NCBI RefSeq assembly: GCF_009914755.1
Contig: NC_060925.1
Reading direction: 5' to 3' (one strand)
From: the human T2T-CHM13v2.0 reference genome, Homo sapiens
Length of the DNA stretch: 64,000 bases
The translations under genes were made by a program, and so were the position numbers. This document shows, in pieces, positions 18,906 through 41,116 of this stretch (position 1 is the first letter of the stretch; the number at the start of each line of letters is the position of its first letter). The notes under the pieces were generated by a model that saw nothing but the letters and a program-made list of their open reading frames with translations, ran no database searches and was not told where the DNA came from.

Positions 18906-19679
18906 GTGGTTTTTTAGGCCTCAGAAAACTGAATCTCTCTCTGTGATCTTCGCCTTCCCTCTTTTCACCTGCTTCTTTTTCTCCCCAAAGAAAGCCTTAG
19001 AAACTAAAAATATAATCCAATCTTTCCCCGCTTTTGGTCACAAAGAAATTATCTGACTACCTTGTCTGACTGTATGTCATAAGACCTCTGTTTCAAAAGA
19101 GGTCTTCTCTCATACCCTGGGGGAGGGAATGCTATACAGAGAGGCCAAGAAAAATCCGATCAGACAGGCCTTCGTGGGTGTCCCCACTCACTCTATCAAC
19201 ATTAGGTCATACTCTTTGTTCAATCATATTTCTGTGCAATTGTCCATGCTTCAATCATGACTATTCAATAAAGTCTCCATATAAGGGCCAAAAGGAGAGG
19301 ACAGAAAACTTCTGGACAGCTAAACTCATGAAGCTGAACAGGAGGGTGATAAGAACCCATCCATGTGCCTGGAGGGTGGCATGTCCCAACTCCACAGAGG
19401 CAGAAGCTCTTATGCTCTTCCAGACCTCACCCTCTGTGTCTTTTCATCTGACTGTTTCTGTGTATCCTTTGTAATATCATTTATAATAAGTGGTAAACAT
19501 AGGTAAGTGTTTCCTTTATAGTAAACTAACTGAACCCAAGGAAGGGCCGTGGGATCCCCAATTTACAATCACTTGGTCAAAAGTACAGGACAACTTGGGG
19601 CTTTTAATTGGCACTGGAAATGGAAGGCAGTGTTATGGGACTGAGCCCTCACCCTGTGGGATCTGACACTATCTCCAGA
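18906..19679 (+). mobile_element. MER21-family LTR (MER21A-like), 5' part, interrupted by the array
   Basis: MER21-like motifs CCTGGAGGGTGGCATGTCCCAACTCCACAGAGGCAGAAGCTC and GGGACTGAGCCCTCACCCTGTGGGATCTGACACTATCTCCAG. AATAAA at 19267-19272. The 5' boundary is approximate. Confidence 0.7.
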
Positions 19680-22600
19680 TAGATAGTGGCAGATGGTCAT
19701 GGGAGTTTAGCTTGGGCTAGAGCATTTGACTGTAGATAGCGGCAGATGGTCACGGGAGTTTAGCTCGGGCTAGAGCATTTGACTGTAGATAGCGGCAGAT
19801 GGTCACGGGAGTTTAGCTCGGGCTAGAGCATTTGACTGTAGATAGCGGCAGATGGTCACGGGAGTTTAGCTCGGGCTAGAGCATTTGACTGTAGATAGCG
19901 GCAGATGGTCACGGGAGTTTAGCTCGGGCTAGCGCATTTGACTGTAGATAGCGGCAGATGGTCACGGGAGTTTAGCTCGGGCTAGCGCATTTGACTGTAG
20001 ATAGCGGCAGATGGTCACGGGAGTTTAGCTCGGGCTAGCGCATTTGACTGTAGATAGCGGCAGATGGTCACGGGAGTTTAGCTCGGGCTAGAGCATTTGA
20101 CTGTAGATAGCGGCAGATGGTCACGGGAGTTTAGCTCGGGCTAGAGCATTTGACTGTAGATAGCGGCAGATGGTCACGGGAGTTTAGCTCGGGCTAGAGC
20201 ATTTGACTGTAGATAGCGGCAGATGGTCACGGGAGTTTAGCTCGGGCTAGAGCATTTCACTGCAGATAGCGGCAGATGGTCACGGGAGTTTAGCTCGGGC
20301 TAGCGCATTTGACTGTAGATAGCGGCAGATGGTCACGGGAGTTTAGCTCGGGCTAGAGCATTTGACTGTAGATAGCGGCAGATGGTCACGGGAGTTTAGC
20401 TCGGGCTAGAGCATTTGACTGTAGATAGCGGCAGATGGTCACGGGAGTTTAGCTCGGGCTAGAGCATTTGACTGTAGATAGCGGCAGATGGTCACGGGAG
20501 TTTAGCTCGGGCTAGAGCATTTGACTGTAGATAGCGGCAGATGGTCACGGGAGTTTAGCTCGGGCTAGCGCATTTGACTGTAGATAGCGGCAGATGGTCA
20601 CGGGAGTTTAGCTCGGGCTAGAGCATTTGACTGTAGATAGCGGCAGATGGTCCCGGGAGTTTAGCTCGGGCTAGGGCATTTGACTGCAGATAGCGGCAGA
20701 TGGTCACGGGAGTTTAGCTCGGGCTAGCGCATTTGACTGTAGATAGCGGCAGATGGTCACGGGAGTTTAGCTCGGGCTAGAGCATTTGACTGTAGATAGC
20801 GGCAGATGGTCACGGGAGTTTAGCTCGGGCTAGAGCATTTGACTGTAGATAGCGGCAGATGGTCACGGGAGTTTAGCTCGGGCTAGAGCATTTGACTGTA
20901 GATAGCGGCAGATGGTCACGGGAGTTTAGCTCGGGCTAGAGCATTTGACTGTAGATAGCGGCAGATGGTCACGGGAGTTTAGCTCGGGCTAGAGCATTTG
21001 ACTGTAGATAGCGGCAGATGGTCACGGGAGTTTAGCTCGGGCTAGAGCATTTGACTGTAGATAGCGGCAGATGGTCACGGGAGTTTAGCTCGGGCTAGAG
21101 CATTTGACTGCAGATAGCGGCAGATGGTCACGGGAGTTTAGCTCGGGCTAGAGCATTTGACTGTAGATAGCGGCAGATGGTCACGGGAGTTTAGCTCGGG
21201 CTAGAGCATTTGACTGTAGATAGCGGCAGATGGTCACGGGAGTTTAGCTCGGGCTAGAGCATTTGACTGTAGATAGCGGCAGATGGTCACGGGAGTTTAG
21301 CTCGGGCTAGCGCATTTGACTGTAGATAGCGGCAGATGGTCACGGGAGTTTAGCTCGGGCTAGATCATTTGACTGTAGATAGCGGCAGATGGTCACGGGA
21401 GTTTAGCTCGGGCTAGAGCATTTGAATGTAGATAGCGGCAGATGGTCACGGGAGTTTAGCTCGGGCTAGAGCATTTGACTGTAGATAGCGGCAGATGGTC
21501 ACGGGAGTTTAGCTCGGGCTAGCGCATTTGACTGTAGATAGCGGCAGATGGTCACGGGAGTTTAGCTCGGGCTAGCGCATTTGACTGTAGATAGCGGCAG
21601 ATGGTCACGGGAGTTTAGCTCGGGCTAGCGCATTTGACTGTAGATAGCGGCAGATGGTCACGGGAGTTTAGCTCGGGCTAGAGCATTTGACTGTAGATAG
21701 CGGCAGATGGTCACGGGAGTTTAGCTCGGGCTAGCGCATTTGACTGTAGATAGCGGCAGATGGTCACGGGAGTTTAGCTCGGGCTAGCGCATTTGACTGT
21801 AGATAGCGGCAGATGGTCACGGGAGTTTAGCTCGGGCTAGCGCATTTGACTGTAGATAGCGGCAGATGGTCACGGGAGTTTAGCTCGGGCTAGAGCATTT
21901 GACTGTAGATAGCGGCAGATGGTCACGGGAGTTTAGCTCGGGCTAGAGCATTTGACTGTAGATAGCGGCAGATGGTCACGGGAGTTTAGCTCGGGCTAGC
22001 GCATTTGACTGTAGATAGCGGCAGATGGTCACGGGAGTTTAGCTCGGGCTAGAGCATTTGACTGTAGATAGCGGCAGATGGTCCCGGGAGTTTAGCTCGG
22101 GCTAGAGCATTTGACTGTAGATAGCGGCAGATGGTCACGGGAGTTTAGCTCGGGCTAGAGCATTTGACTGTAGATAGCGGCAGATGGTCACGGGAGTTTA
22201 GCTCGGGCTAGAGCATTTGACTGTAGATAGCGGCAGATGGTCACGGGAGTTTAGCTCGGGCTAGCGCATTTGACTGTAGATAGCGGCAGATGGTCACGGG
22301 AGTTTAGCTCGGGCTAGCGCATTTGACTGTAGATAGCGGCAGATGGTCACGGGAGTTTAGCTCGGGCTAGAGCATTTGACTGCAGATAGCGGCAGATGGT
22401 CCCGGGAGTTTAGCTCGGGCTAGAGCATTTGACTGTAGATAGCGGCAGATGGTCACGGGAGTTTAGCTCGGGCTAGCGCATTTGACTGTAGATAGCGGCA
22501 GATGGTCACGGGAGTTTAGCTCGGGCTAGAGCATTTGACTGTAGATAGCGGCAGATGGTCACGGGAGTTTAGCTCGGGCTAGAGCATTTGACTGTAGATA

Positions 22601-25600
22601 GCGGCAGATGGTCACGGGAGTTTAGCTCGGGCTAGCGCATTTGACTGTAGATAGCGGCAGATGGTCACGGGAGTTTAGCTCGGGCTAGAGCATTTGACTG
22701 TAGATAGCGGCAGATGGTCCCGGGAGTTTAGCTCGGGCTAGAGCATTTGACTGTAGATAGCGGCAGATGGTCCCGGGAGTTTAGCTCGGGCTAGAGCATT
22801 TGACTGCAGATAGCGGCAGATGGTCACGGGAGTTTAGCTCGGGCTAGAGCATTTGACTGTAGATAGCGGCAGATGGTCACGGGAGTTTAGCTCGGGCTAG
22901 AGCATTTGACTGTAGATAGCGGCAGATGGTCCCGGGAGTTTAGCTCGGGCTAGAGCATTTGACTGTAGATAGCGGCAGATGGTCACGGGAGTTTAGCTCG
23001 GGCTAGCGCATTTGACTGTAGATAGCGGCAGATGGTCACGGGAGTTTAGCTCGGGCTAGAGCATTTGACTGTAGATAGCGGCAGATGGTCACGGGAGTTT
23101 AGCTCGGGCTAGAGCATTTGACTGCAGATAGCGGCAGATGGTCACGGGAGTTTAGCTCGGGCTAGCGCATTTGACTGTAGATAGCGGCAGATGGTCACGG
23201 GAGTTTAGCTCGGGCTAGAGCATTTGACTGTAGATAGCGGCAGATGGTCACGGGAGTTTAGCTCGGGCTAGCGCATTTGACTGTAGATAGCGGCAGATGG
23301 TCACGGGAGTTTAGCTCGGGCTAGAGCATTTGACTGTAGATAGCGGCAGATGGTCACGGGAGTTTAGCTCGGGCTAGAGCACTTGACTGTAGATAGCGGC
23401 AGATGGTCACGGGAGTTTAGCTCGGGCTAGCGCATTTGACTGTAGATAGCGGCAGATGGTCACGGGAGTTTAGCTCGGGCTAGAGCATTTGACTGTAGAT
23501 AGCGGCAGATGGTCCCGGGAGTTTAGCTCGGGCTAGAGCATTTGACTGTAGATAGCGGCAGATGGTCCCGGGAGTTTAGCTCGGGCTAGAGCATTTGACT
23601 GTAGATAGCGGCAGATGGTCACGGGAGTTTAGCTCGGGCTAGAGCATTTGACTGTAGATAGCGGCAGATGGTCACGGGAGTTTAGCTCGGGCTAGAGCAT
23701 TTGACTGTAGATAGCGGCAGATGGTCACGGGAGTTTAGCTCGGGCTAGAGCATTTGACTGTAGATAGCGGCAGATGGTCACGGGAGTTTAGCTCGGGCTA
23801 GAGCATTTGACTGTAGATAGCGGCAGATGGTCACGGGAGATTAGCTCGGGCTAGAGCATTTGACTGTAGATAGCGGCAGATGGTCACGGGAGTTTAGCTC
23901 GGGCTAGCGCATTTGACTGTAGATAGCGGCAGATGGTCACGGGAGTTTAGCTCGGGCTAGAGCATTTGACTGCAGATAGCGGCAGATGGTCACGGGAGTT
24001 TAGCTCGGGCTAGAGCATTTGACTGTAGATAGCGGCAGATGGTCACGGGAGTTTAGCTCGGGCTAGAGCATTTGACTGTAGATAGCGGCAGATGGTCACG
24101 GGAGTTTAGCTCGGGCTAGAGCATTTGACTGTAGATAGCGGCAGATGGTCACGGGAGTTTAGCTCGGGCTAGCGCATTTGACTGTAGATAGCGGCAGATG
24201 GTCACGGGAGTTTAGCTCGGGCTAGAGCATTTGACTGTAGATAGCGGCAGATGGTCACGGGAGTTTAGCTCGGGCTAGAGCATTTGACTGTAGATAGCGG
24301 CAGATGGTCACGGGAGTTTAGCTCGGGCTAGAGCATTTGACTGTAGATAGCGGCAGATGGTCACGGGAGTTTAGCTCGGGCTAGAGCATTTGACTGTAGA
24401 TAGCGGCAGATGGTCACGGGAGTTTAGCTCGGGCTAGCGCATTTGACTGTAGATAGCGGCAGATGGTCACGGGAGTTTAGCTCGGGCTAGCGCATTTGAC
24501 TGTAGATAGCGGCAGATGGTCACGGGAGTTTAGCTCGGGCTAGAGCATTTGACTGTAGATAGCGGCAGATGGTCACGGGAGTTTAGCTCGGGCTAGCGCA
24601 TTTGACTGTAGATAGCGGCAGATGGTCACGGGAGTTTAGCTCGGGCTAGCGCATTTGACTGTAGATAGCGGCAGATGGTCACGGGAGTTTAGCTCGGGCT
24701 AGCGCATTTGACTGTAGATAGCGGCAGATGGTCACGGGAGTTTAGCTCGGGCTAGAGCATTTGACTGTAGATAGCGGCAGATGGTCACGGGAGTTTAGCT
24801 CGGGCTAGCGCATTTGACTGTAGATAGCGGCAGATGGTCACGGGAGTTTAGGTCGGGCTAGCGCATTTGACTGTAGATAGCGGCAGATGGTCACGGGAGT
24901 TTAGCTCGGGCTAGAGCATTTGACTGTAGATAGCGGCAGATGGTCACGGGAGTTTAGCTCGGGCTAGCGCATTTGACTGTAGATAGCGGCATATGGTCAC
25001 GGGAGTTTAGCTCGGGCTAGCGCATTTGACTGTAGATAGCGGCAGATGGTCACGGGAGTTTAGCTCGGGCTAGAGCATTTGACTGTAGATAGCGGCAGAT
25101 GGTCACGGGAGTTTAGCTCGGGCTAGCGCATTTGACTGTAGATAGCGGCAGATGGTCACGGGAGTTTAGCTCGGGCTAGCGCATTTGACTGTAGATAGCG
25201 GCAGATGGTCACGGGAGTTTAGCTCGGGCTAGCGCATTTGACTGTAGATAGCGGCAGATGGTCACGGGAGTTTAGCTCGGGCTAGAGCATTTGACTGTAG
25301 ATAGCGGCAGATGGTCACGGGAGTTTAGCTCGGGCTAGCGCATTTGACTGTAGATAGCGGCAGATGGTCACGGGAGTTTAGCTCGGGCTAGCGCATTTGA
25401 CTGTAGATAGCGGCAGATGGTCACGGGAGTTTAGCTCGGGCTAGAGCATTTGACTGTAGATAGCGGCAGATGGTCACGGGAGTTTAGCTCGCGCTAGCGC
25501 ATTTGACTGTAGATAGCGGCAGATGGTCACGGGAGTTTAGCTCGGGCTAGCGCATTTGACTGTAGATAGCGGCAGATGGTCACGGGAGTTTAGCTCGGGC

Positions 25601-28600
25601 TAGAGCATTTGACTGTAGATAGCGGCAGATGGTCACGGGAGTTTAGCTCGGGCTAGCGCATTTGACTGCAGATAGCGGCAGATGATCACGGGAGTTTAGC
25701 TCGGGCTAGCGCATTTGACTGTAGATAGCGGCAGATGGTCACGGGAGTTTAGCTCGGGCTAGCGCATTTGACTGTAGATAGCGGCAGATGGTCACGGGAG
25801 TTTAGCTCGGGCTAGAGCATTTGACTGTAGATAGCGGCAGATGGTCACGGGAGTTTAGCTCGGGCTAGCGCATTTGACTGTAGATAGCGGCAGATGGTCA
25901 CGGGAGTTTAGCTCGGGCTAGCGCATTTGACTGTAGATAGCGGCAGATGGTCACGGGAGTTTAGCTCGGGCTAGAGCATTTGACTGCAGATAGCGGCAGA
26001 TGGTCCCGGGAGTTTAGCTCGGGCTAGAGCATTTGACTGTAGATAGCGGCAGATGGTCACGGGAGTTTAGCTCGGGCTAGCGCATTTGACTGTAGATAGC
26101 GGCAGATGGTCACGGGAGTTTAGCTCGGGCTAGAGCATTTGACTGTAGATAGCGGCAGATGGTCACGGGAGTTTAGCTCGGGCTAGCGCATTTGACTGTA
26201 GATAGCGGCAGATGGTCACGGGAGTTTAGCTCGGGCTAGCGCATTTCACTGTAGATAGCGGCAGATGGTCACGGGAGTTTAGCTCGGGCTAGAGCATTTG
26301 ACTGTAGATAGCGGCAGATGGTCACGGGAGTTTAGCTCGGGCTAGCGCATTTGACTGTAGATAGCGGCAGATGGTCACGGGAGTTTAGCTCGGGCTAGCG
26401 CATTTGACTGTAGATAGCGGCAGATGGTCACGGGAGTTTAGCTCGGGCTAGAGCATTTGACTGTAGATAGCGGCAGATGGTCACGGGAGTTTAGCTCGGG
26501 CTAGAGCATTTGACTGTAGATAGCGGCAGATGGTCACGGGAGTTTAGCTCGGGCTAGCGCATTTGACTGTAGATAGCGGCAGATGGTCACGGGAGTTTAG
26601 CTCGGGCTAGAGCATTTGACTGTAGATAGCGGCAGATGGTCACGGGAGTTTAGCTCGGGCTAGAGCATTTGACTGTAGATAGCGGCAGATGGTCACGGGA
26701 GTTTAGCTCGGGCTAGAGCATTTGACTGTAGATAGCGGCAGATGGTCACGGGAGTTTAGCTCGGGCTAGAGCATTTGACTGTAGATAGCGGCAGATGGTC
26801 ACGGGAGTTTAGCTCGGGCTAGAGCATTTGACTGTAGATAGCGGCAGATGGTCACGGGAGTTTAGCTCGGGCTAGAGCATTTGACTGTAGATAGCGGCAG
26901 ATGGTCACGGGAGTTTAGCTCGGGCTAGAGCATTTGACTGTAGATAGCGGCAGATGGTCACGGGAGTTTAGCTCGGGCTAGAGCATTTGACTGTAGATAG
27001 CGGCAGATGGTCACGGGAGTTTAGCTCGGGCTAGCGCATTTGACTGTAGATAGCGGCAGATGGTCACGGGAGTTTAGCTCGGGCTAGCGCATTTGACTGC
27101 AGATAGCGGCAGATGGTCACGGGAGTTTAGCTCGGGCTAGCGCATTTGACTGCAGATAGCGGCAGATGGTCACGGGAGTTTAGCTCGGGCTAGCGCATTT
27201 GACTGTAGATAGCGGCAGATGGTCACGGGAGTTTAGCTCGGGCTAGCGCATTTGACTGTAGATAGCGGCAGATGGTCACGGGAGTTTAGCTCGGGCTAGC
27301 GCATTTGACTGTAGATAGCGGCAGATGGTCACGGGAGTTTAGCTCGGGCTAGAGCATTTGACTGTAGATAGCGGCAGATGGTCACGGGAGTTTAGCTCGG
27401 GCTAGAGCATTTGACTGTAGATAGCGGCAGATGGTCACGGGAGTTTAGCTCGGGCTAGCGCATTTGACTGTAGATAGCGGCAGATGGTCACGGGAGTTTA
27501 GCTCGGGCTAGAGCATTTGACTGTAGATAGCGGCAGATGGTCCCGGGAGTTTAGCTCGGGCTAGAGCATTTGACTGTAGATAGCGGCAGATGGTCCCGGG
27601 AGTTTAGCTCGGGCTAGAGCATTTGACTGCAGATAGCGGCAGATGGTCACGGGAGTTTAGCTCGGGCTAGCGCATTTGACTGTAGATAGCGGCAGATGGT
27701 CACGGGAGTTTAGCTCGGGCTAGAGCATTTGACTGTAGATAGCGGCAGATGGTCACGGGAGTTTAGCTCGGGCTAGAGCATTTGACTGTAGATAGCGGCA
27801 GATGGTCACGGGAGTTTAGCTCGGGCTAGCGCATTTGACTGTAGATAGCGGCAGATGGTCACGGGAGTTTAGCTCGGGCTAGAGCATTTGACTGTAGATA
27901 GCGGCAGATGGTCCCGGGAGTTTAGCTCGGGCTATAGCATTTGACTGTAGATAGCGGCAGATGGTCCCGGGAGTTTAGCTCGGGCTAGAGCATTTGACTG
28001 CAGATAGCGGCAGATGGTCACGGGAGTTTAGCTCGGGCTAGAGCATTTGACTGTAGATAGCGGCAGATGGTCACGGGAGTTTAGCTCGGGCTAGAGCATT
28101 TGACTGTAGATAGCGGCAGATGGTCCCGGGAGTTTAGCTCGGGCTAGAGCATTTGACTGTAGATAGCGGCAGATGGTCCCGGGAGTTTAGCTCGGGCTAG
28201 AGCATTTGACTGTAGATAGCGGCAGATGGTCACGGGAGTTTAGCTCGGGCTAGAGCATTTGACTGTAGATAGCGGCAGATGGTCACGGGAGTTTAGCTCG
28301 GGCTAGCGCATTTGACTGTAGATAGCGGCAGATGGTCACGGGAGTTTAGCTCGGGCTAGCGCATTTGACTGTAGATAGCGGCAGATGGTCACGGGAGTTT
28401 AGCTCGGGCTAGAGCATTTGACTGTAGATAGCGGCAGATGGTCACGGGAGTTTAGCTCGGGCTAGCGCATTTGACTGTAGATAGCGGCAGATGGTCACGG
28501 GAGTTTAGCTCGGGCTAGCGCATTTGACTGTAGATAGCGGCAGATGGTCACGGGAGTTTAGCTCGGGCTAGAGCATTTGACTGTAGATAGCGGCAGATGG

Positions 28601-31600
28601 TCACGGGAGTTTAGCTCGGGCTAGAGCATTTGACTGTAGATAGCGGCAGATGGTCACGGGAGTTTAGCTCGGGCTAGCGCATTTGACTGTAGATAGCGGC
28701 AGATGGTCACGGGAGTTTAGCTCGGGCTAGAGCATTTGACTGTAGATAGCGGCAGATGGTCACGGGAGTTTAGCTCGGGCTAGAGCATTTGACTGTAGAT
28801 AGCGGCAGATGGTCACGGGAGTTTAGCTCGGGCTAGAGCATTTGACTGTAGATAGCGGCAGATGGTCACGGGAGTTTAGCTCGGGCTAGAGCATTTGACT
28901 GTAGATAGCGGCAGATGGTCACGGGAGTTTAGCTCGGGCTAGAGCATTTGACTGTAGATAGCGGCAGATGGTCACGGGAGTTTAGCTCGGGCTAGAGCAT
29001 TTGACTGTAGATAGCGGCAGATGGTCACGGGAGTTTAGCTCGGGCTAGAGCATTTGACTGTAGATAGCGGCAGATGGTCACGGGAGTTTAGCTCGGGCTA
29101 GAGCATTTGACTGTAGATAGCGGCAGATGGTCACGGGAGTTTAGCTCGGGCTAGAGCATTTGACTGTAGATAGCGGCAGATGGTCACGGGAGTTTAGCTC
29201 GGGCTAGAGCATTTGACTGTAGATAGCGGCAGATGGTCACGGGAGTTTAGCTCGGGCTAGCGCATTTGACTGTAGATAGCGGCAGATGGTCACGGGAGTT
29301 TAGCTCGGGCTAGCGCATTTGACTGGAGATAGCGGCAGATGGTCACGGGAGTTTAGCTCGGGCTAGCGCATTTGACTGCAGATAGCGGCAGATGGTCACG
29401 GGAGTTTAGCTCGGGCTAGCGCATTTGACTGTAGATAGCGGCAGATGGTCACGGGAGTTTAGCTCGGGCTAGCGCATTTGACTGTAGATAGCGGCAGATG
29501 GTCACGGGAGTTTAGCTCGGGCTAGAGCATTTGACTGTAGATAGCGGCAGATGGTCACGGGAGTTTAGCTCGGGCTAGCGCATTTGACTGTAGATAGCGG
29601 CAGATGGTCACGGGAGTTTAGCTCGGGCTAGCGCATTTCACTGTAGATAGCGGCAGATGGTCACGGGAGTTTAGCTCGGGCTAGAGCATTTGACTGTAGA
29701 TAGCGGCAGATGGTCACGGGAGTTTAGCTCGGGCTAGCGCATTTGACTGTAGATAGCGGCAGATGGTCACGGGAGTTTAGCTCGGGCTAGAGCATTTGAC
29801 TGTAGATAGCGGCAGATGGTCACGGGAGTTTAGCTCGGGCTAGAGCATTTGACTGTAGATAGCGGCAGATGGTCACGGGAGTTTAGCTCGGGCTAGAGCA
29901 TTTGACTGTAGATAGCGGCAGATGGTCACGGGAGTTTAGCTCGGGCTAGAGCATTTGACTGTAGATAGCGGCAGATGGTCACGGGAGTTTAGCTCGGGCT
30001 AGCGCATTTGACTGTAGATAGCGGCAGATGGTCACGGGAGTTTAGCTCGGGCTAGCGCATTTGACTGTAGATAGCGGCAGATGGTCACGGGAGTTTAGCT
30101 CGGGCTAGCGCATTTGACTGTAGATAGCGGCAGATGGTCACGGGAGTTTAGCTCGGGCTAGCGCATTTCACTGTAGATAGCGGCAGATGGTCACGGGAGT
30201 TTAGCTCGGGCTAGCGCATTTGACTGTAGATAGCGGCAGATGGTCACGGGAGTTTAGCTCGGGCTAGCGCATTTGACTGTAGATAGCGGCAGATGGTCAC
30301 GGGAGTTTAGCTCGGGCTAGCGCATTTGACTGTAGATAGCGGCAGATGGTCACGGGAGTTTAGCTCGGGCTAGAGCATTTGACTGTAGATAGCGGCAGAT
30401 GGTCACGGGAGTTTAGCTCGGGCTAGAGCATTTGACTGTAGATAGCGGCAGATGGTCACGGGAGTTTAGCTCGGGCTAGCGCATTTGACTGTAGATAGCG
30501 GCAGATGGTCACGGGAGTTTAGCTCGGGCTAGAGCATTTGACTGTAGATAGCGGCAGATGGTCCCGGGAGTTTAGCTCGGGATAGAGCATTTGACTGTAG
30601 ATAGCGACAGATGGTCACGGGAGTTTAGCTCGGGCTAGAGCATTTGACTGTAGATAGCGGCAGATGGTCACGGGAGTTTAGCTCGGGCTAGAGCATTTGA
30701 CTGTAGATAGCGGCAGATGGTCACGGGAGTTTAGCTCGGGCTAGAGCATTTGACTGTAGATAGCGGCAGATGGTCACGGGAGTTTAGCTCGGGCTAGAGC
30801 ATTTGACTGTAGATAGCGGCAGATGGTCACGGGAGTTTAGCTCGGGCTAGAGCATTTGACTGTAGATAGCGGCAGATGGTCACGGGAGTTTAGCTCGGGC
30901 TAGAGCATTTGACTGTAGATAGCGGCAGATGGTCACGGGAGTTTAGCTCGGGCTAGAGCATTTGACTGTAGATAGCGGCAGATGGTCACGGGAGTTTAGC
31001 TCGGGCTAGCGCATTTGACTGTAGATAGCGGCAGATGGTCACGGGAGTTTAGCACGGGCTAGAGCATTTGACTGTAGATAGCGGCAGATGGTCACGGGAG
31101 TTTAGCTCGGGCTAGAGCATTTGACTGCAGATAGCGGCAGATGGTCACGGGAGTTTAGCTCGGGCTAGCGCATTTGACTGTAGATAGCGGCAGATGTTCA
31201 CGGGAGTTTAGCTCGGGCTAGAGCATTTGACTGTAGATAGCGGCAGATGGTCACGGGAGTTTAGCTCGGGCTAGCGCATTTGACTGTAGATAGCGGCAGA
31301 TGGTCACGGGAGTTTAGCTCGGGCTAGAGCATTTGACTGTAGATAGCGGCAGATGGTCACGGGAGTTTAGCTCGGGCTAGAGCATTTGACTGTAGATACC
31401 GGCAGATGGTCACGGGAGTTTAGCTCGGGCTAGCGCATTTGACTGTAGATAGCGGCAGATGGTCACGGGAGTTTAGCTCGCCCTAGAGCATTTGACTGTA
31501 GATAGCGGCAGATGGTCCCGGGAGTTTAGCTCGGGCTAGAGCATTTGACTGTAGATAGCGGCAGATGGTCACGGGAGTTTAGCTCGGGCTAGAGCATTTG

Positions 31601-34600
31601 ACTGCAGATAGCGGCAGATGGTCACGGGAGTTTAGCTCGGGCTAGAGCATTTGACTGTAGATAGCGGCAGATGGTCACGGGAGTTTAGCTCGGGCTAGAG
31701 CATTTGACTGTAGATAGCGGCAGATGGTCACGGGAGTTTAGCTCGGGCTAGAGCATTTGACTGTAGATAGCGGCAGATGGTCACGGGAGTTTAGCTCGGG
31801 CTAGCGCATTTGACTGTAGATAGCGGCAGATGGTCACGGGAGTTTAGCTCGGGCTAGCGCATTTGACTGTAGATAGCGGCAGATGGTCACGGGAGTTTAG
31901 CTCGGGCTAGAGCATTTGACTGCAGATAGCGGCAGATGGTCACGGGAGTTTAGCTCGGGCTAGCGCATTTGACTGTAGATAGCGGCAGATGGTCACGGGA
32001 GTTTAGCTCGGGCTAGAGCATTTGACTGTAGATAGCGGCAGATGGTCACGGGAGTTTAGCTCGGGCTAGCGCATTTGACTGTAGATAGCGGCAGATGGTC
32101 ACGGGAGTTTAGCTCGGGCTAGAGCATTTGACTGTAGATAGCGGCAGATGGTCACGGGAGTTTAGCTCGGGCTAGCGCATTTGACTGTATATAGCGGCAG
32201 ATGGTCACGGGAGTTTAGCTCGGGCTAGCGCATTTGACTGTAGATAGCGGCAGATGGTCCCGGGAGTTTAGCTCGGGCTAGAGCATTTGACTGTAGATAG
32301 CGGCAGATGGTCCCGGGAGTTTAGCTCGGGCTAGAGCATTTGACTGTAGATAGCGGCAGATGGTCACGGGAGTTTAGCTCGGGCTAGAGCATTTGACTGT
32401 AGATAGCGGCAGATGGTCACGGGAGTTTAGCTCGGGCTAGAGCATTTGACTGTAGATAGCGGCAGATGGTCACGGGAGTTTAGCTCGGGCTAGAGCATTT
32501 GACTGTAGATAGCGGCAGATGGTCACGGGAGTTTAGCTCGGGCTAGAGCATTTGACTGTAGATAGCGGCAGATGGTCACGGGAGTTTAGCTCGGGCTAGA
32601 GCATTTGACTGTAGATAGCGGCAGATGGTCACGGGAGTTTAGCTCGGGCTAGAGCATTTGACTGTAGATAGCGGCAGATGGTCACGGGAGTTTAGCTCGG
32701 GCTAGAGCATTTGACTGTAGATAGCGGCAGATGGTCACGGGAGTTTAGCTCGGGCTAGCGCATTTGACTGTAGATAGCGGCAGATGGTCACGGGAGTTTA
32801 GCTCGGGCTAGAGCATTTGACTGCAGATAGCGGCAGATGGTCACGGGAGTTTAGCTCGGGCTAGCGCATTTGACTGTAGATAGCGGCAGATGGTCACGGG
32901 AGTTTAGCTCGGGCTAGAGCATTTGACTGTAGATAGCGGCAGTTGGTCACGGGAGTTTAGCTCGGGCTAGAGCATTTGACTGTAGATAGCGGCAGATGGT
33001 CACGGGAGTTTAGCTCGGGCTAGCGCATTTGACTGTAGATAGCGGCAGATGGTCACGGGAGTTTAGCTCGGGCTAGAGCATTTGACTGTAGATAGCGGCA
33101 GATGGTCACGGGAGTTTAGCTCGGGCTAGAGCATTTGACTGTAGATAGCGGCAGATGGTCACGGGAGTTTAGCTCGGGCTAGCGCATTTGACTGTAGATA
33201 GCGGCAGATGGTCACGGGAGTTTAGGTCGGGCTAGAGCATTTGACTGTAGATAGCGGCAGATGGTCACGGGAGTTTAGCTCGGGCTAGCGCATTTGACTG
33301 TAGATAGCGGCAGATGGTCACGGGAGTTTAGCTCGGGCTAGCGCATTTGACTGTAGATAGCGGCAGATGGTCACGGGAGTTTAGCTCGGGCTAGAGCATT
33401 TGACTGTAGATAGCGGCAGATGGTCACGGGAGTTTAGCTCGGGCTAGCGCATTTGACTGTAGATAGCGGCAGATGGTCACGGGAGTTTACCTCGGGCTAG
33501 CGCATTTGACTGTAGATAGCGACAGATGGTCACGGGAGTTTAGCTCGGGCTAGCGCATTTGACTTTAGATAGCGGCAGATGGTCACGGGAGTTTAGCTCG
33601 GGCTAGAGCATTTGACTGTAGATAGCGGCAGATGGTCACGGGAGTTTAGCTCGGGCTAGCGCATTTGACTGGAGATAGCGGCAGATGGTCACGGGAGTTT
33701 AGCTCGGGCTAGAGCATTTGACTGCAGATAGCGGCAGATGGTCACGGGAGTTTAGCTCGGGCTAGCGCATTTGACTGTAGATAGCGGCAGATGGTCACGG
33801 GAGTTTAGCTCGTGCTAGCGCATTTGACTGTAGATAGCGGCAGATGGTCACGGGAGTTTAGCTCGGGCTAGAGCATTTGACTGTAGATAGCGGCAGATGG
33901 TCACGGGAGTTTAGCTCGGGCTAGAGCATTTGACTGTAGATAGCGGCAGATGGTCACGGGAGTTTAGCTCGGGCTAGAGCATTTGACTGTAGATAGCGGC
34001 AGATGGTCACGGGAGTTTAGCTCGGGCTAGAGCATTTGACTGTAGATAGCGGCAGATGGTCACGGGAGTTTAGCTCGGGCTAGCGCATTTGACTGTAGAT
34101 AGCGGCAGATGGTCACGGGAGTTTAGCTCGGGCTAGAGCATTTGACTGTAGATAGCGGCAGATGGTCACGGGAGTTTAGCTCGGGCTAGCGCATTTGACT
34201 GTAGATAGCGGCAGATGGTCACGGGAGTTTAGCTCGGGCTAGAGCATTTGACTGTAGATAGCGGCAGATGGTCACGGGAGTTTAGCTCGGGCTAGAGCAT
34301 TTGACTGTAGATAGCGGCAGATGGTCACGGGAGTTTAGCTCGGGCTAGCGCATTTGACTGTAGATAGCGGCAGATGGTCACGGGAGTTTAGCTCGGGCTA
34401 GCGCATTTGACTGTAGATAGCGGCAGATGGTCACGGGAGTTTAGCTCGGGCTAGCGCATTTGACTGTAGATAGCGGCAGATGGTCACGGGAGTTTAGCTC
34501 GGGCTAGAGCATTTGACTGTAGATAGCGGCAGATGGTCACGGGAGTTTAGCTCGGGCTAGCGCATTTGACTGTAGATAGCGGCAGATGGTCACGGGAGTT

Positions 34601-37600
34601 TAGCTCGGGCTAGCGCATTTGACTGTAGATAGCGGCAGATGGTCACGGGAGTTTAGCTCGGGCTAGCGCATTTGACTGTAGATAGCGGCAGATGGTCACG
34701 GGAGTTTAGCTCGGGCTAGAGCATTTGACTGTAGATAGCGGCAGATGGTCACGGGAGTTTAGCTCGGGCTAGAGCATTTGACTGTAGATAGCGGCAGATG
34801 GTCACGGGAGTTTAGCTCGGGCTAGCGCATTTGACTGTAGATAGCGGCAGATGGTCACGGGAGTTTAGCTCGGGCTAGAGCATTTGACTGTAGATAGCGG
34901 CAGATGGTCCCGGGAGTTTAGCTCGGGATAGAGCATTTGACTGTAGATAGCGACAGATGGTCACGGGAGTTTAGCTCGGGCTAGAGCATTTGACTGTAGA
35001 TAGCGGCAGATGGTCACGGGAGTTTAGCTCGGGGTAGAGCATTTGACTGTAGATAGCGGCAGATGGTCACGGGAGTTTAGCTCGGGCTAGAGCATTTGAC
35101 TGTAGATAGCGGCAGATGGTCACGGGAGTTTAGCTCGGGCTAGAGCATTTGACTGTAGATAGCGGCAGATGGTCACGGGAGTTTAGCTCGGGCTAGAGCA
35201 TTTGACTGTAGATAGCGGCAGATGGTCACGGGAGTTTAGCTCGGGCTAGAGCATTTGATTGTAGATAGCGGCAGATGGTCACGGGAGTTTAGCTCGGGCT
35301 AGCGCATTTGACTGTAGATAGCGGCAGATGGTCACGGGAGTTTAGCTCGGGCTAGAGCATTTGACTGTAGATAGCGGCAGATGGTCACGGGAGTTTAGCT
35401 CGGGCTAGAGCATTTGACTGCAGATAGCGGCAGATGGTCACGGGAGTTTAGCTCGGGCTAGCGCATTTGACTGTAGATAGCGGCAGATGTTCACGGGAGT
35501 TTAGCTCGGGCTAGAGCATTTGACTGTAGATAGCGGCAGATGGTCACGGGAGTTTAGCTCGGGCTAGCGCATTTGACTGTAGATAGCGGCAGATGGTCAC
35601 GGGAGTTTAGCTCGGGCTAGAGCATTTGACTGTAGATAGCGGCAGATGGTCACGGGAGTTTAGCTCGGGCTAGAGCATTTGACTGTAGATAGCGGCAGAT
35701 GGTCACGGGAGTTTAGCTCGGGCTAGCGCATTTGACTGTAGATAGCGGCAGATGGTCACGGGAGTTTAGCTCGCCCTAGAGCATTTGACTGTAGATAGCG
35801 GCAGATCGTCCCGGGAGTTTAGCTCGGGCTAGAGCATTTGACTGTAGATAGCGGCAGATGGTCCCGGGAGTTTAGCTCGGGCTAGAGCATTTGACTGCAG
35901 ATAGCGGCAGATGGTCACGGGAGTTTAGCTCGGGCTAGAGCATTTGACTGTAGATAGCGGCAGATGGTCACGGGAGTTTAGCTCGGGCTAGAGCATTTGA
36001 CTGTAGATAGCGGCAGATGGTCACGGGAGTTTAGCTCGGGCTAGAGCATTTGACTGTAGATAGCGGCAGATGGTCACGGGAGTTTAGCTCGGGCTAGCGC
36101 ATTTGACTGTAGATAGCGGCAGATGGTCACGGGAGTTTAGCTCGGGCTAGAGCATTTGACTGTAGATAGCGGCAGATGGTCACGGGAGTTTAGCTCGGGC
36201 TAGAGCATTTGACTGCAGATAGCGGCAGATGGTCACGGGAGTTTAGCTCGGGCTAGCGCATTTGACTGTAGATAGCGGCAGATGGTCACGGGAGTTTAGC
36301 TCGGGCTAGAGCATTTGACTGTAGATAGCGGCAGATGGTCACGGGAGTTTAGCTCGGGCTAGCGCATTTGACTGTAGATAGCGGCAGATGGTCACGGGAG
36401 TTTAGCTCGGGCTAGCGCATTTGACTGTAGATAGCGGCAGATGGTCACGGGAGTTTAGCTCGGGCTAGAGCATTTGACTGTAGATAGCGGCAGATGGTCC
36501 CGGGAGTTTAGCTCGGGCTAGAGCATTTGACTGTAGATAGCGGCAGATGGTCACGGGAGTTTAGCTCGGGCTAGAGCATTTGACTGTAGATAGCGGCAGA
36601 TGGTCACGGGAGTTTAGCTCGGGCTAGCGCATTTGACTGTAGATAGCGGCAGATGGTCACGGGAGTTTAGCTCGGGCTAGAGCATTTGACTGTAGATAGC
36701 GGCAGATGGTCCCGGGAGTTTAGCTCGGGCTAGAGCATTTGACTGTAGATAGCGGCAGATGGTCACGGGAGTTTAGCTCGGGCTAGAGCATTTGACTGTA
36801 GATAGCGGCAGATGGTCACGGGAGTTTAGCTCGGGCTAGAGCATTTGACTGTAGATAGCGGCAGATGGTCACGGGAGTTTAGCTCGGGCTAGAGCATTTG
36901 ACTGTAGATAGCGGCAGATGGTCACGGGAGTTTAGCTCGGGCTAGAGCATTTGACTGTAGATAGCGGCAGATGGTCACGGGAGTTTAGCTCGGGCTAGAG
37001 CATTTGACTGTAGATAGCGGCAGATGGTCACGGGAGTTTAGCTCGGGCTAGCGCATTTGACTGTAGATAGCGGCAGATGGTCACGGGAGTTTAGCTCGGG
37101 CTAGAGCATTTGACTGCAGATAGCGGCAGATGGTCACGGGAGTTTAGCTCGGGCTAGCGCATTTGACTGTAGATAGCGGCAGATGGTCACGGGAGTTTAG
37201 CTCGGGCTAGAGCATTTGACTGTAGATAGCGGCAGATGGTCACGGGAGTTTAGCTCGGGCTAGAGCATTTGACTGTAGATAGCGGCAGATGGTCACGGGA
37301 GTTTAGCTCGGGCTAGCGCATTTGACTGTAGATAGCGGCAGATGGTCACGGGAGTTTAGCTCGGGCTAGAGCATTTGACTGTAGATAGCGGCAGATGGTC
37401 ACGGGAGTTTAGCTCGGGCTAGAGCATTTGACTGTAGATAGCGGCAGATGGTCACGGGAGTTTAGCTCGGGCTAGCGCATTTGACTGTAGATAGCGGCAG
37501 ATGGTCACGGGAGTTTAGCTCGGGCTAGAGCATTTGACTGTAGATAGCGGCAGATGGTCACGGGAGTTTAGCTCGGGCTAGCGCATTTGACTGTAGATAG

Positions 37601-39777
37601 CGGCAGATGGTCACGGGAGTTTAGCTCGGGCTAGCGCATTTGACTGTAGATAGCGGCAGATGGTCACGGGAGTTTAGCTCGGGCTAGCGCATTTGACTGT
37701 AGATAGCGGCAGATGGTCACGGGAGTTTAGCTCGGGCTAGCGCATTTGACTGTAGATAGCGGCAGATGGTCACGGGAGTTTACCTCGGGCTAGCGCATTT
37801 GACTGTAGATAGCGACAGATGGTCACGGGAGTTTAGCTCGGGCTAGCGCATTTGACTTTAGATAGCGGCAGATGGTCACGGGAGTTTAGCTCGGGCTAGA
37901 GCATTTGACTGTAGATAGCGGCAGATGGTCACGGGAGTTTAGCTCGGGCTAGAGCATTTGACTGTAGATAGCGGCATATGGTCACGGGAGTTTAGCTCGG
38001 GCTAGCGCATTTGACTGTAGATAGCGGCAGATGGTCACGGGAGTTTAGCTCGGGCTAGAGCATTTGACTGTAGATAGCGGCAGATGGTCCCGGGAGTTTA
38101 GCTCGGGCTAGATCATTTGACTGTAGATAGCGGCAGATGGTCACGGGAGTTTAGCTCGGGCTAGAGCATTTGACTGTAGATAGCGGCAGATGGTCCCGGG
38201 AGTTTAGCTCGGGCTAGAGCATTTGACTGTAGATAGCGGCAGATGGTCACGGGAGTTTAGCTCGGGCTAGAGCATTTGACTGTAGATAGCGGCAGATGGT
38301 CACGGGAGTTTAGCTCGGGCTAGAGCATTTGACTGTAGATAGCGGCAGATGGTCACGGGAGTTTAGCTCGGGCTAGCGCATTTGACTGTAGATAGCGGCA
38401 GATGGTCACGGGAGTTTAGCTCGGGCTAGAGCATTTGACTGTAGATAGCGGCAGATGGTCACGGGAGTTTAGCTCGGGCTAGAGCATTTGACTGTAGATA
38501 GCGGCAGATGGTCACGGGAGTTTAGCTCGGGCTAGAGCATTTGACTGTAGATAGCGGCAGATGGTCACGGGAGTTTAGCTCGGGGTAGAGCATTTGACTG
38601 TAGATAGCGGCAGATGGTCACGGGAGTTTAGCTCGGGCTAGCGCATTTGACTGTAGATAGCGGCAGATGGTCACGGGAGTTTAGCTCGGGCTAGCGCATT
38701 TGACTGTAGATAGCGGCAGATGGTCACGGGAGTTTAGCTCGGGCTAGAGCATTTGACTGTAGATAGCGGCAGATGGTCACGGGAGTTTAGCTCGGGCTAG
38801 CGCATTTGACTGTAGATAGCGGCAGATGGTCACGGGAGTTTAGCTCGGGCTAGCGCATTTGACTGTAGATAGCGGCAGATGGTCACGGGAGTTTAGCTCG
38901 GGCTAGCGCATTTGACTGTAGATAGCGGCAGATGGTCACGGGAGTTTAGCTCGGGCTAGAGCATTTGACTGTAGATAGCGGCAGATGGTCCCGGGAGTTT
39001 AGCTCGGGCTAGAGCATTTGACTGTAGATAGCGGCAGATGGTCACGGGAGTTTAGCTCGGGCTAGAGCATTTGACTGTAGATAGCGGCAGATGGTCACGG
39101 GAGTTTAGCTCGGGCTAGAGCATTTGACTGTAGATAGCGGCAGATGGTCACGGGAGTTTAGCTCGGGCTAGAGCATTTGACTGTAGATAGCGGCAGATGG
39201 TCACGGGAGTTTAGCTCGGGCTAGCGCATTTGACTGTAGATAGCGGCAGATGGTCACGGGAGTTTAGCTCGGGCTAGCGCATTTGACTGTAGATAGCGGC
39301 AGATGGTCACGGGAGTTTAGCTCGGGCTAGAGCATTTGACTGTAGATAGCGGCAGATGGTCACGGGAGTTTAGCTCGGGCTAGCGCATTTGACTGTAGAT
39401 AGCGGCAGATGGTCACGGGAGTTTAGCTCGGGCTAGCGCATTTGACTGTAGATAGCGGCAGATGGTCACGGGAGTTTAGCTCGGGCTAGCGCATTTGACT
39501 GTAGATAGCGGCAGATGGTCACGGGAGTTTAGCTCGGGCTAGCGCATTTGACTGTAGATAGCGGCAGATGGTCACGGGAGTTTAGCTCGGGCTAGAGCAT
39601 TTGACTGTAGATAGTGGCAGATGGTCACGGGAGTTTAGCTCGGGCTAGAGCATTTGACTGTAGATAGTGGCAGATGGTCACGGGAGTTTAGCTCGGGCTA
39701 GCGCATTTGACTGTAGATAGTGGCAGATGGTCATGGGAGTTTAGCTTGGGCTAGCGCATTTGACTGTAGATAGTGGC
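19680..39777. repeat. Giant 53-bp tandem array (VNTR/satellite), 379 full units, about 20.1 kb, CpG-rich
   Basis: Unit GTAGATAGCGGCAGATGGTCACGGGAGTTTAGCTCGGGCTAG[A/C]GCATTTGACT. AGATAG at 19681 and 39768 are 20087 bp apart (379 x 53), so there is no net indel. The ORF track lists no ORF within the array body. Confidence 0.99.
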
Positions 39778-39947
39778 CGAATGGAATTGATTTGGAGGAC
39801 ACCAAGTGGTGTCCACTGCAGAAATGATTGTTTACTTGGTGTGTATCAAAAATCCCCCACTCACTTGGTCCCATACATCTTATATGTTGGTTGTTGTGTG
39901 GTGTGGAAGCAGAGGAAAACTGTTTCATGTGTTTTTTTCCTCAAAGA
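39778..39947 (+). mobile_element. MER21-family LTR, 3' part resuming after the array
   Basis: GAATGGAATTGATTTGGAGGACACC..TGGTGTCC..AAAATCCCCCAC..CTTGGTC..GAGGAAAAC..TTTTTTCC is the expected continuation of the LTR interrupted at 19680. Confidence 0.7.
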
Positions 39948-41116
39948 GCATTCAACTTGGTGGAAAAAAAAAACTAATGTAAAAAAACCTCCTCTTGATC
40001 TCTTTTCCTTCTCTTTTCTTTTTTTCTTATACCTTCCCTTTCTCCTGCCATGTTCACATGTATTCTAAATAAATACAACAGGGCTCCATAAACACAAAAA
40101 TGTGTTTCCATCTGCAAGCTGGTAGAAAGAGTCATTGAACATAGTCTTCTTAAACAGGTATTGTACTCACTACAATCAGGTGCTTATTACTTTCAGTAAA
40201 AGTACGGTATTTATCTTTTTTTATTTTGCAACACATTAGTGAAAACTATTTGTCAGATAACTTAAAATAAATGGATGAAAGCAAAGGACATTGCCCAGAA
40301 AAGACATCATGAGAACACTGCATATCTGAGGGGTAACGGGGTTTCTAAAACACTGGAGAAACATACAGGGTGATGGGTTAGGAAGGCAGTAAAATGCTTT
40401 TCAAATATCTCATGAGATCATCAAGATTAAGCATATATCAGCCATGTAATAGTATTAGGGCATAGTTAATATTCATGTTCCATATGGATCCAGGAATTGA
40501 GGAAAGAAAGCATGTGCCAATACATGGTTAGTATCCCAATTATATAAAGAGTTCACTCATCATCAAAAGGGTGACTTTCTCAAAATTATAATTCACCATG
40601 TGGGGTTATCATTATACAAACATCATCATGGTCATAATCATAATCATATTCATCAATCTCTATCTAAAACTTAAAAATTTATGTGCCTTGCCAGGTTCAT
40701 CATCCTTTAACAACTTCATAACAAAGGAAGCAGAACTTGTTATGAGTCATAGTTTACATGTAAGAACAGTAAGTTTCAGGGAAGCAAGAAAATTCTGTAG
40801 GATAATAATTCTAATTAATAGACTAGATGGCAGAATTTCAAGAAATGTGATTGATAGAACACTATATTCTTCAGATACAGCTTCCTCATTCATTCATTCA
40901 TGCTTTATAGCTGTGACCAAGACAAACAAAGCAATTGCACTTGAGAAATTTGCATTCCAGTGTGGAAAAGACAATGAACAAAAATAAATACAACAAGTGA
41001 GCAAGCAAAAAAACACATATATCCACCATGTTGTGTGTGGTAGCTGTGACTAAAGCTAAACATATCCATATCCTGCACCCCTGCAGGTCCATTCTTGAGT
41101 GAATTCTTAATAGATA

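What the first reader, a model, noticed from the sequence alone, without database searches (positions are those of the whole stretch)
19680..39777. Array appears to have gained CpGs: terminal units are TpG, internal units CpG, and common variants go A/T to C
Seen: the first unit (19680-19732) and the last full unit (about 39714-39766) read AGTGGC/CATGGG/CTTGGG. The units near 39608 and 39661 are intermediate (only AGTGGC). Every internal unit I read keeps CpG at all three sites. The three recurrent internal variants are also changes to C (GAGC/GCGC, TGTAG/TGCAG, TCACG/TCCCG). I saw no internal CpG-to-TpG/CpA decay. The host LTR flank has GATAGTG, so TpG looks ancestral at that site. This is opposite to normal methyl-CpG decay. 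Inference: GC-biased gene conversion during homogenisation in a subtelomeric region, combined with very recent expansion or germline hypomethylation.
Basis: partly seen in the sequence, partly recalled or inferred. Interest (0 to 1): 0.75.

Follow-up and report, generated by a model that had tools for sequence, protein, structure and literature searches.

The report
Minisatellite that gained CpGs near OR2T1
A 20-kb human tandem repeat next to an olfactory receptor gene keeps its original CpG-free version only at its two ends, while every inner copy carries three new CpG sites, a clean but not unprecedented example of repeats evolving together with a bias toward G and C.

Summary
Window 19680-39777 is 379 indel-free 53-bp units plus an 11-nt partial unit. 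T at positions 8, 21 and 34 occurs only in units 1 and 379 (all three sites) and in units 377, 378 and the partial unit (position 8). Units 2-376 hold 1271 CpGs with no variant at any CpG base.

The direction is a gain at site 1. In 30 dispersed paralogues of the host repeat the site reads TG in 23, CG in 1 and CA in 0. In 16 of 16 paralogues both array edges map to one and the same base. Sites 2 and 3 have no outgroup in this genome. Independent edge decay still fits poorly: all nine edge changes are TpG, none CpA, and there is no other edge substitution.

GC-biased conversion is consistent but not shown. All six fixed or common changes are weak-to-strong. Rare variants are 3 weak-to-strong against 12 strong-to-weak (Fisher p 0.0015, up to 0.07 under stricter counting). 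Rare variants are also transition-poor (5 of 26), which resembles the spectrum published for human segmental duplications. Youth alone cannot explain the missing CpG decay.

Methylation, hotspot maps and ape orthologues could not be tested. This is a new member of known kinds and of moderate interest.

The parts
19680..39777 (+). 53-bp minisatellite: 379 full units plus an 11-nt partial unit, no indels. GC 0.537, CpG observed/expected 0.99, GC skew +0.33.
19680..19732 (+). Unit 1, the relic type: T at positions 8, 21 and 34, no CpG, no other difference from the commonest unit.
19733..39607 (+). Units 2-376: CpG at all three sites in every unit. 1271 CpGs with no variant at a CpG base. 26 rare variant types, 5 of them transitions.
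39608..39713 (+). Units 377 and 378, the intermediate type: T at position 8, C at positions 21 and 34.
39714..39766 (+). Unit 379, the relic type: T at positions 8, 21 and 34. It carries C at position 42.
39767..39777 (+). Terminal partial unit (11 nt, T at position 8). It is contiguous with the right flank in the paralogues.
19380..19679 (+). Left part of the old dispersed host repeat. Paralogues are 69-79% identical. The annotated OR2T1 3' end at 19646 lies inside it.
   Evidence: hub annotation for 19646
39778..39960 (+). Right part of the same dispersed repeat. Paralogues are 70-87% identical and colinear with the left part across a single 11-mer.
29644..34731 (+). Units 189-284, the first copy of an internal block duplication with a period of about 82 units.
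   Evidence: 74 identical of 91 aligned units, 8 unit gaps; rare variants recur at a lag of 81-82 units
33990..38971 (+). Units 271-364, the second, overlapping copy of the block duplication.

Best explanation
The array is a young minisatellite kept homogeneous by exchange between its own units. It arose at one 11-nt site inside an old dispersed LTR-like repeat, 34 nt past the annotated OR2T1 3' end and about 534 kb from the 1q telomere.

The founding 53-bp unit had no CpG. The outermost units cannot be replaced by unequal exchange, so they still show that founder: type T-T-T at positions 8, 21 and 34 in units 1 and 379, and type T-C-C in units 377 and 378.

The interior descends from unit variants that changed TGG to CGG at positions 8, 21 and 34. 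These variants took over the array. The A-to-C change at position 42 adds a fourth CpG to 146 units; its direction is uncertain. The result is a 20-kb stretch that meets the CpG-island sequence criteria, inside DNA with 38% GC.

Inferred mechanism, not shown:
- During break repair between misaligned units, heteroduplex mismatches are repaired toward G:C.
- This bias is strongest for T:G mismatches at CpG, through TDG/MBD4-type short-patch repair.
- CpG-creating and other weak-to-strong variants therefore rise in frequency. Strong-to-weak transitions, including methyl-CpG decay, are erased.
- What remains as rare variation is mostly G-targeted transversions from error-prone repair synthesis.
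- Germline hypomethylation may add to this.

Shown: the anatomy, the tallies and the polarity at site 1 and position 1. Inferred: the polarity at sites 2 and 3, the repair bias and the methylation state.
For: Anatomy:
- 379 in-register units, 0% indels.
- An internal block duplication: units 189-284 against 271-364, 74 identical of 91 aligned.
- Rare variants recur at a lag of 81-82 units.

Relic edges:
- T at the three sites occurs only in units 1, 377-379 and the partial unit.
- Unit 1 differs from the commonest unit at those three sites only.
- Unit 379 differs at those three sites plus the common C at position 42.

Polarity:
- 30 of the 58 fetched paralogue loci cover unit positions 1-11. 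Site 1 reads TG in 23, T in 27, CG in 1, CA in 0. Position 1 is T in 29.
- In 16 of 16 loci aligned from both edges, the site-1 base is the same base. The founder therefore had one 11-mer with TG.

Decay fits badly:
- All nine edge T's are TpG and none is CpA.
- There are 0 changes at the other 2 x 47 edge positions.
- The best likelihood of independent decay is 1.3e-3, or 2e-5 with the strand term. This uses a recalled 12-fold CpG rate.

Bias:
- 6 of 6 fixed or common changes are weak-to-strong, against 3 weak-to-strong and 12 strong-to-weak among the 26 rare types.
- Fisher p = 0.0015, or 0.0036 without position 42.
- A random substitution in unit 1 creates a CpG with P = 0.16; for three in a row P = 0.004.

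No decay: 0 events at 1271 CpGs, P = 0.022 at an equal rate and 3e-17 at a 10-fold rate.

Local contrast: a roughly 10-unit minisatellite 4 kb upstream shows an ordinary CpG/TpG mix among its inner units.

Rare-variant spectrum:
- 5 transitions against 21 transversions (binomial p = 1.7e-5 against 0.61).
- Among the 13 types present in two or more units the split is 1 to 12, so these are not read errors.
- 20 of 26 types fall at G or C (p = 0.017).

Precedents in print:
- Human segmental duplications show +27% C>G, -7.6% CpG transitions and a lower Ti/Tv. The authors ascribe this to gBGC and break repair (PMC10172114, passages).
- CpG transitions are the class most affected by gBGC (10.1101/2020.09.25.313411, abstract).
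- Meiotic break repair is mutagenic, with REV1-type C>G changes and minisatellite instability near telomeres (PMC7615360, passages).
Against: - Sites 2 and 3 and positions 20 and 42 have no outgroup. The unit body occurs nowhere else and shows no significant similarity to the flanks.
- The three CpG changes may have swept as one haplotype, so there are fewer independent events. With only positions 1 and 20 counted as common, Fisher p = 0.07.
- The two edges disagree at position 42, so that variant's polarity is open.
- C at position 20 never occurs with C at position 42 (0 of 27 units). Variants therefore spread mainly as whole units or blocks, not through short conversion tracts.
- A transition share of 5 of 26 is also compatible with a flat error-like spectrum (p = 0.09 against 1/3).
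- No PRDM9 13-mer is present in the window.
- Methylation, recombination maps and other haplotypes were not available.
- Only one haplotype (CHM13) was read.
Confidence: 0.5

Rival explanations
1. Gain without bias. The T-to-C changes arose by ordinary mutation in one inner unit, or as one clustered event on one strand. That unit type took over by neutral unequal exchange and block duplication. CpGs have not decayed because the array is unmethylated in the germline, which is expected for a region with CpG-island composition.
For: - Variants spread as whole units and blocks.
- The array meets the CpG-island sequence criteria: GC 0.537, observed/expected 0.99.
- The three sites are 13 nt apart and all lie in TGG. 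The unit has lag-13 self-similarity: 24 of 53 matches, reached by 4 of 2000 shuffles at that lag. This fits a single context-specific or clustered event.
- With strict counting the frequency contrast is only p = 0.07.
Against: - Three of three fixed changes creating CpG has P about 0.004 under random substitution.
- 6 of 6 common changes are weak-to-strong.
- Hypomethylation does not explain why rare variants are transition-poor at non-CpG sites (5 of 26).
- The T-C-C units 377 and 378 argue for at least two steps or a recombinant.
- The lag-13 signal is marginal after correcting for 26 lags: 124 of 2000 shuffles reach it.
Confidence: 0.27
2. Edge decay. The founder unit had CpG at the three sites. 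The outermost units lie in methylated 'shore' DNA outside the homogenised core and lost their CpGs by deamination.
For: - CpG-to-TpG is the fastest substitution (established knowledge).
- The edge units differ from inner units only at CpG sites.
- The flanks are CpG-depleted, with observed/expected 0.09-0.26.
Against: - Site 1 was TG in the host repeat: TG in 23 of 30 paralogues, CA in 0. The C there is derived in any case.
- Both edges trace to one ancestral base (16 of 16).
- Nine of nine edge changes are TpG and none is CpA.
- Loss of 6 of 6 CpGs with no other change at 94 edge positions has a best likelihood of 1.3e-3, or 2e-5 with the strand term.
- In units 377 and 378 the T lies at the site farther from the edge, while the two nearer sites keep C. 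This is not a spatial gradient.
Confidence: 0.08
3. Assembly or polishing artefact in a near-identical 20-kb array.
For: The array is as long as a typical HiFi read, and the rare-variant spectrum is close to flat (p = 0.09 against 1/3).
Against: - 13 of 26 rare types occur in two or more units, and several recur at the 81-82-unit lag of a block duplication.
- The T-type 29-mer occurs exactly twice in the genome, once at each edge beside unique flank sequence.
- There are no indels, which are the usual long-read error type.
Confidence: 0.03

Closest known systems
Concerted evolution of tandem arrays with relic edge units (unequal-exchange models; layered expansion of satellites).
   Same: The interior is homogeneous and recently duplicated in blocks. 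The oldest variants sit at both ends.
   Different: The edge and inner units differ only by CpG-creating changes. The host-repeat paralogues allow the direction to be read at one site.
GC-biased gene conversion and the altered mutation spectrum in human segmental duplications (Vollger et al. 2023, PMC10172114, passages read). X-chromosome palindromes are a related case (PMC8981503, search listing only).
   Same: Fewer CpG transitions, more C<->G transversions, lower Ti/Tv and maintenance of GC in sequence that recombines with its own copies.
   Different: The effect here is far more extreme: 0 of 1271 CpGs varied and the ratio of transition to transversion variant types is 5:21, against a 7.6% reduction and Ti/Tv of 1.78. 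It sits in one 53-bp-unit array rather than in kilobase-scale paralogues. It rests on 26 variant types in one haplotype.
Subtelomeric GC-rich hypervariable minisatellites driven by meiotic breaks (general knowledge; mentioned in PMC7615360, passages).
   Same: Subtelomeric position, 534 kb from the chromosome end. A GC-rich, strand-skewed unit. Signs of repeated duplication.
   Different: No hotspot or instability data for this locus. No PRDM9 13-mer in the window. The founder unit was CpG-free and not especially GC-rich.
CpG islands
   Same: The sequence criteria are met over 20 kb: GC 0.537, observed/expected 0.99. GC skew is +0.33 on the OR2T1 sense strand.
   Different: It was built by amplifying three or four point changes, not by long-term protection of ancestral CpGs. 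The methylation state is unknown.

Membership tests
Minisatellite/VNTR under concerted evolution | Head-to-tail units of 10-100 bp in register | tested here: met
   379 units of 53 bp, 0% indels
Minisatellite/VNTR under concerted evolution | Interior more homogeneous than the ends; higher-order block duplications | tested here: met
   T-type units only at the ends. Units 189-284 against 271-364, 74 identical of 91 aligned.
Minisatellite/VNTR under concerted evolution | Copy-number polymorphism among people | not testable with these tools
   Only a hint: optical-map haplotypes differ in a subregion that overlaps OR2T1 (PMC6615982, passages). That paper does not name the array.
GC-biased gene conversion tract | Weak-to-strong changes at high frequency or fixed, strong-to-weak changes held rare | tested here: met
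   6 to 0 among common changes against 3 to 12 among rare ones. Fisher p = 0.0015, 0.0036 without position 42, 0.07 with only positions 1 and 20. Small n; frequency is measured within one array.
GC-biased gene conversion tract | Direction of change fixed by an outgroup | tested here: inconclusive
   Met for site 1 and position 1 (TG 23 of 30, T 29 of 30). No outgroup exists in this genome for positions 20, 21, 34 and 42.
GC-biased gene conversion tract | Lies in a recombination hotspot or high-recombination region | not testable with these tools
   Only the position is known: 533,551 bp from the contig end. The PRDM9 13-mer, recalled from memory, has 0 matches in the window against 1.57 expected.
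GC-biased gene conversion tract | Transmission bias seen directly in meioses | not testable with these tools
   Needs sperm or pedigree long reads.
CpG island | Length over 200 bp, GC above 0.5, CpG observed/expected above 0.6 (criteria recalled) | tested here: met
   20,098 bp, GC 0.537, observed/expected 0.99. The rest of the window has GC 0.378 and observed/expected 0.17.
CpG island | Unmethylated in the germline | not testable with these tools
   No methylation data held.
Methyl-CpG decay of edge units | Loss to TpG and CpA in similar numbers, along with other substitutions | tested here: not met
   Nine TpG, zero CpA, and 0 other changes at 94 edge positions. Site 1 is TG in the paralogues.

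The most novel reading that the evidence does not exclude
A repair drive specific to CpG acted inside the array. T:G mismatches in heteroduplex between misaligned units are corrected to C:G. This drive turned a CpG-free 53-mer into a 20-kb CpG island within a few million years. It still purges transitions, so the surviving rare variants are an almost pure record of break-repair synthesis errors: G-targeted transversions and a GG-to-CC double change. If so, arrays of this kind are single-locus natural reporters of both conversion bias and recombination-linked mutagenesis in the human germline. Tandem amplification together with this bias would be a route by which CpG islands arise de novo.
Probability: 0.3. 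Interest if true: 0.65.

Novelty: new member of a known kind. Interest (0 to 1): 0.45.

Why it matters
The locus polarises itself. The relic edge units and the paralogues of the host repeat give the ancestral state without another species. One haplotype therefore already shows both what spread (weak-to-strong, CpG-creating changes) and what stayed rare (strong-to-weak changes and transversions).

With the hundreds of assembled human and ape haplotypes now public, the same tally at this and similar arrays could measure conversion bias and break-repair mutagenesis per mutation type. It could also test whether tandem amplification creates CpG islands in AT-rich gene clusters.

It does not reveal a new process. 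Concerted evolution, gBGC and the spectrum shift in duplicated DNA are all in print.

Tried and rejected
- **Whole-genome DNA search with 265 nt of the array.** Not scored, 'too many letters'. I searched with the flanks and with patterns instead.
- **Origin of unit positions 12-53.** By eye they resemble the 65 nt left of the array, but local alignments are no better than shuffles: 86 of 500 and 194 of 500; 440, 441, 638 and 368 of 1000. Rejected as evidence, so sites 2 and 3 stay unpolarised.
- **Other loci carrying the unit.**
  - The T-type 29-mer with up to 1 mismatch has 2 matches, both at the array edges.
  - A 32-nt pattern with up to 3 mismatches has 379 forward and 0 reverse matches. 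That equals the number of units. The 100 rows listed all lie in the array; 279 rows were not listed.
- **APOBEC-type context for the G/C changes.** By eye on the contexts, only position 49 (G followed by A) fits. Not pursued.
- **PRDM9 13-mer.** 0 matches in the window.
- **13-nt subrepeat structure.** Marginal after correction for 26 lags: 124 of 2000 shuffles. Kept only as a note.
- **Literature on this array.**
  - 'OR2T1' + 'tandem repeat' gave 7 papers. Two were opened. One is on optical-map haplotypes and one matched OR2T11 only.
  - VNTR / 1q44 / olfactory receptor / T2T-CHM13 gave 8 papers by listing.
  - VNTR + GC-biased gene conversion + subtelomeric + CpG gave 3 papers holding all terms, 2 listed. 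One was opened.
  - The hg18 table of arrays over 10 kb has no 53-bp array at 1q44 (PMC2588610, passages).
  - None describes this array. No supplements were opened, so VNTR catalogues may list it.
  - A search for edge effects in arrays gave nothing specific, and none of its papers was opened.
Full report
**What is there**

Tandem Repeats Finder reports one array at 19680-39777 with period 53, 379.2 copies, 98% matches and 0% indels. Cutting it every 53 bases stays in register throughout. This gives 379 full units in 40 types plus an 11-nt partial unit. The two commonest types occur 180 and 114 times.

The array has GC 0.537 and CpG observed/expected 0.99. The rest of the window has GC 0.378 and observed/expected 0.17. 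G outnumbers C two to one on the + strand, a skew of +0.33. The array ends 533,551 bp from the end of the contig. It begins 34 nt after the annotated OR2T1 3' end (hub annotation).

**Check of the observation**

- Position 8 is T only in units 1, 377, 378 and 379 and in the partial unit.
- Positions 21 and 34 are T only in units 1 and 379.
- All 375 units from 2 to 376 read C-C-C. Their 1271 CpGs carry no variant at any CpG base.
- The three recurrent variants are as described: position 42 is A 232 / C 146 / G 1; position 1 is T 354 / C 23 / G 2; position 20 is A 352 / C 27.

There are 26 rare variant types at the non-CpG bases. Given that, zero events at CpG bases has P = 0.022 at an equal per-base rate and 3e-17 at a ten-fold CpG rate. 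A small 59-61-bp minisatellite 4 kb upstream (15226-15849) shows an ordinary CpG/TpG mix among its inner units. The neighbourhood is therefore not generally exempt from this variation.

**Where the array was born, and the direction of change**

Both flanks belong to one old dispersed repeat. The left 300 nt has 1224 first-look candidates genome-wide, and the 39 scored paralogues are 69-79% identical. The right 283 nt has 131 candidates, with scored paralogues 70-87% identical.

Against the 58 fetched paralogue loci:
- Alignments from the left run at most 14-15 nt into unit 1.
- Alignments from the right start at the last base before the terminal 11-nt partial unit.
- In 16 of 16 loci aligned from both sides, the base matching unit position 8 is the same base.

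The ancestor therefore had left flank, one 11-mer and right flank. It had no counterpart of unit positions 12-53.

In the 30 loci that cover the 11-mer, site 1 reads TG in 23, has T in 27, CG in 1 and CA in 0. Position 1 is T in 29. A decayed ancestral CpG would leave both TG and CA. TG was therefore ancestral, and the C at site 1 and the C at position 1 are derived.

The unit body has no significant similarity to the flanks and occurs nowhere else in the genome. Sites 2 and 3 and positions 20 and 42 therefore cannot be polarised in this genome.

**Relic edges or decayed edges**

Several points argue against independent decay of the edges:
- Unit 1 differs from the commonest unit only at the three sites. 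Unit 379 differs there and at the common C at position 42.
- All nine edge T's are TpG and none is CpA.
- None of the other 94 edge positions has changed.
- With a recalled 12-fold CpG rate, independent decay of 6 of 6 CpGs with nothing else changed has a best likelihood of 1.3e-3, or 2e-5 once the strand coincidence is counted.
- In units 377 and 378 the T is at the site farther from the edge, while the two nearer sites keep C. That is a unit type, not a spatial gradient.

The outermost units of an array cannot be replaced by unequal exchange (general knowledge, recalled). Together with the site-1 outgroup, the better reading is that the edges preserve the founder (T-T-T, no CpG at all) and that the interior descends from CpG-gaining variants. 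The T-C-C units may be an intermediate step or a recombinant.

**Is a bias needed**

- A random substitution in unit 1 creates a CpG with P = 0.16, so three in a row has P about 0.004.
- All six fixed or common changes are weak-to-strong.
- The 26 rare types split into 3 weak-to-strong, 12 strong-to-weak, 8 strong-to-strong and 3 weak-to-weak.
- Fisher's test on weak-to-strong against strong-to-weak gives p = 0.0015. It gives 0.0036 without the ambiguous position 42, and 0.07 if only positions 1 and 20 count as common.

This is the classical frequency-class signature of GC-biased conversion. It rests on small numbers and on one haplotype. The three CpG changes may also have spread as a single haplotype.

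Variants spread largely as whole units and blocks. C at position 20 never occurs with C at position 42 (0 of 27 units). A block of about 95 units is duplicated: units 189-284 against 271-364, with 74 identical of 91 aligned.

**An unexpected spectrum**

- Rare types are 5 transitions to 21 transversions (p = 1.7e-5 against a recalled non-CpG expectation of 0.61).
- Among the 13 types present in two or more units the split is 1 to 12. Several of these recur at the 81-82-unit lag of the block duplication, so they are not read errors.
- Twenty of 26 types hit G or C (p = 0.017).
- Eight types are G<->C changes, and one is a GG-to-CC double change (units 223 and 304).

This matches, in extreme form, what is published for human segmental duplications: more C>G, fewer CpG transitions and a lower Ti/Tv, ascribed to gBGC and break repair (PMC10172114, passages). 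It also fits REV1-type C>G mutagenesis at meiotic breaks (PMC7615360, passages). CpG transitions are reported as the class most affected by gBGC (10.1101/2020.09.25.313411, abstract).

My inference is that repair of T:G and A:C mismatches toward G:C both promotes weak-to-strong transitions and erases strong-to-weak ones. This would leave transversions as the rare class. The role of TDG/MBD4 is recalled knowledge and was not tested.

**Age**

Twenty-six events over 17,333 non-CpG bases is 1.5e-3 per base. With a recalled rate of about 0.5e-9 per base per year, that bounds the last homogenisation at roughly 3 million years, and less if repair is mutagenic. Over the same span about 38 CpG events would be expected at a ten-fold rate. 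Youth alone does not explain their absence. Either hypomethylation or a repair drive is needed, and the tools here cannot tell these apart.

**Verdict**

- CpG gain is shown at one site and is the better reading at the other two.
- GC-biased conversion is consistent and has precedents, but is not demonstrated.

The rivals are neutral takeover in a hypomethylated array (0.27), edge decay (0.08) and an assembly artefact (0.03).

I found no paper on this array in four searches and the papers opened. No supplements were opened.

The array is a new, unusually clean member of known kinds: concerted evolution with relic edges, and gBGC in duplicated DNA. Its value lies in being self-polarising and directly testable with public pangenome and ape assemblies.

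Noticed in passing
window 19680-19732 (any unit): The 53-bp unit shows lag-13 self-similarity: 24 of 53 matches against 14.2 +/- 3.1 in shuffles. This is reached by 4 of 2000 shuffles at lag 13, and by 124 of 2000 after taking the best of 26 lags. The three CpG sites (positions 8, 21, 34) are exactly 13 nt apart and all lie in TGG. Three of the four TGG in unit 1 were converted, and neither of the two other TG was. The unit may itself be four decayed 13-nt subrepeats.
   Followed up: partly
window 19691-19732 (unit positions 12-53): The 42-nt unit body has no counterpart in 16 of 16 colinear paralogues of the host repeat. It has no significant match to the flanks and no other copy in the genome. 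Its origin is unexplained. It sits between two copies of an 11-mer, like an insertion with a duplicated target.
   Followed up: partly
window 19646-19680: The annotated OR2T1 3' end (19646) lies inside the host repeat, 34 nt before the array. The array is G-rich on the OR2T1 sense strand (skew +0.33). I did not examine whether read-through transcription or R-loops bear on its methylation.
   Followed up: no
window 15226-15849: A second minisatellite of about 10 units of 59-61 bp lies in the OR2T1 intron. It has GT-rich spacers and an ordinary CpG/TpG/GpG mix among its units.
   Followed up: partly
window 31446-31498 and 35739-35791 (units 223 and 304): A tandem double substitution, GG to CC at positions 36-37, is present in two units 81 units apart. 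This is one event copied by the block duplication.
   Followed up: partly
window 19680-39777: There is not one indel in 20,098 bases, despite 26 substitution types. C at position 20 is never combined with C at position 42 (0 of 27 units).
   Followed up: partly
window 57626-58121: A further tandem repeat: 42-bp unit, 11.7 copies, 87% matches. Not examined.
   Followed up: no
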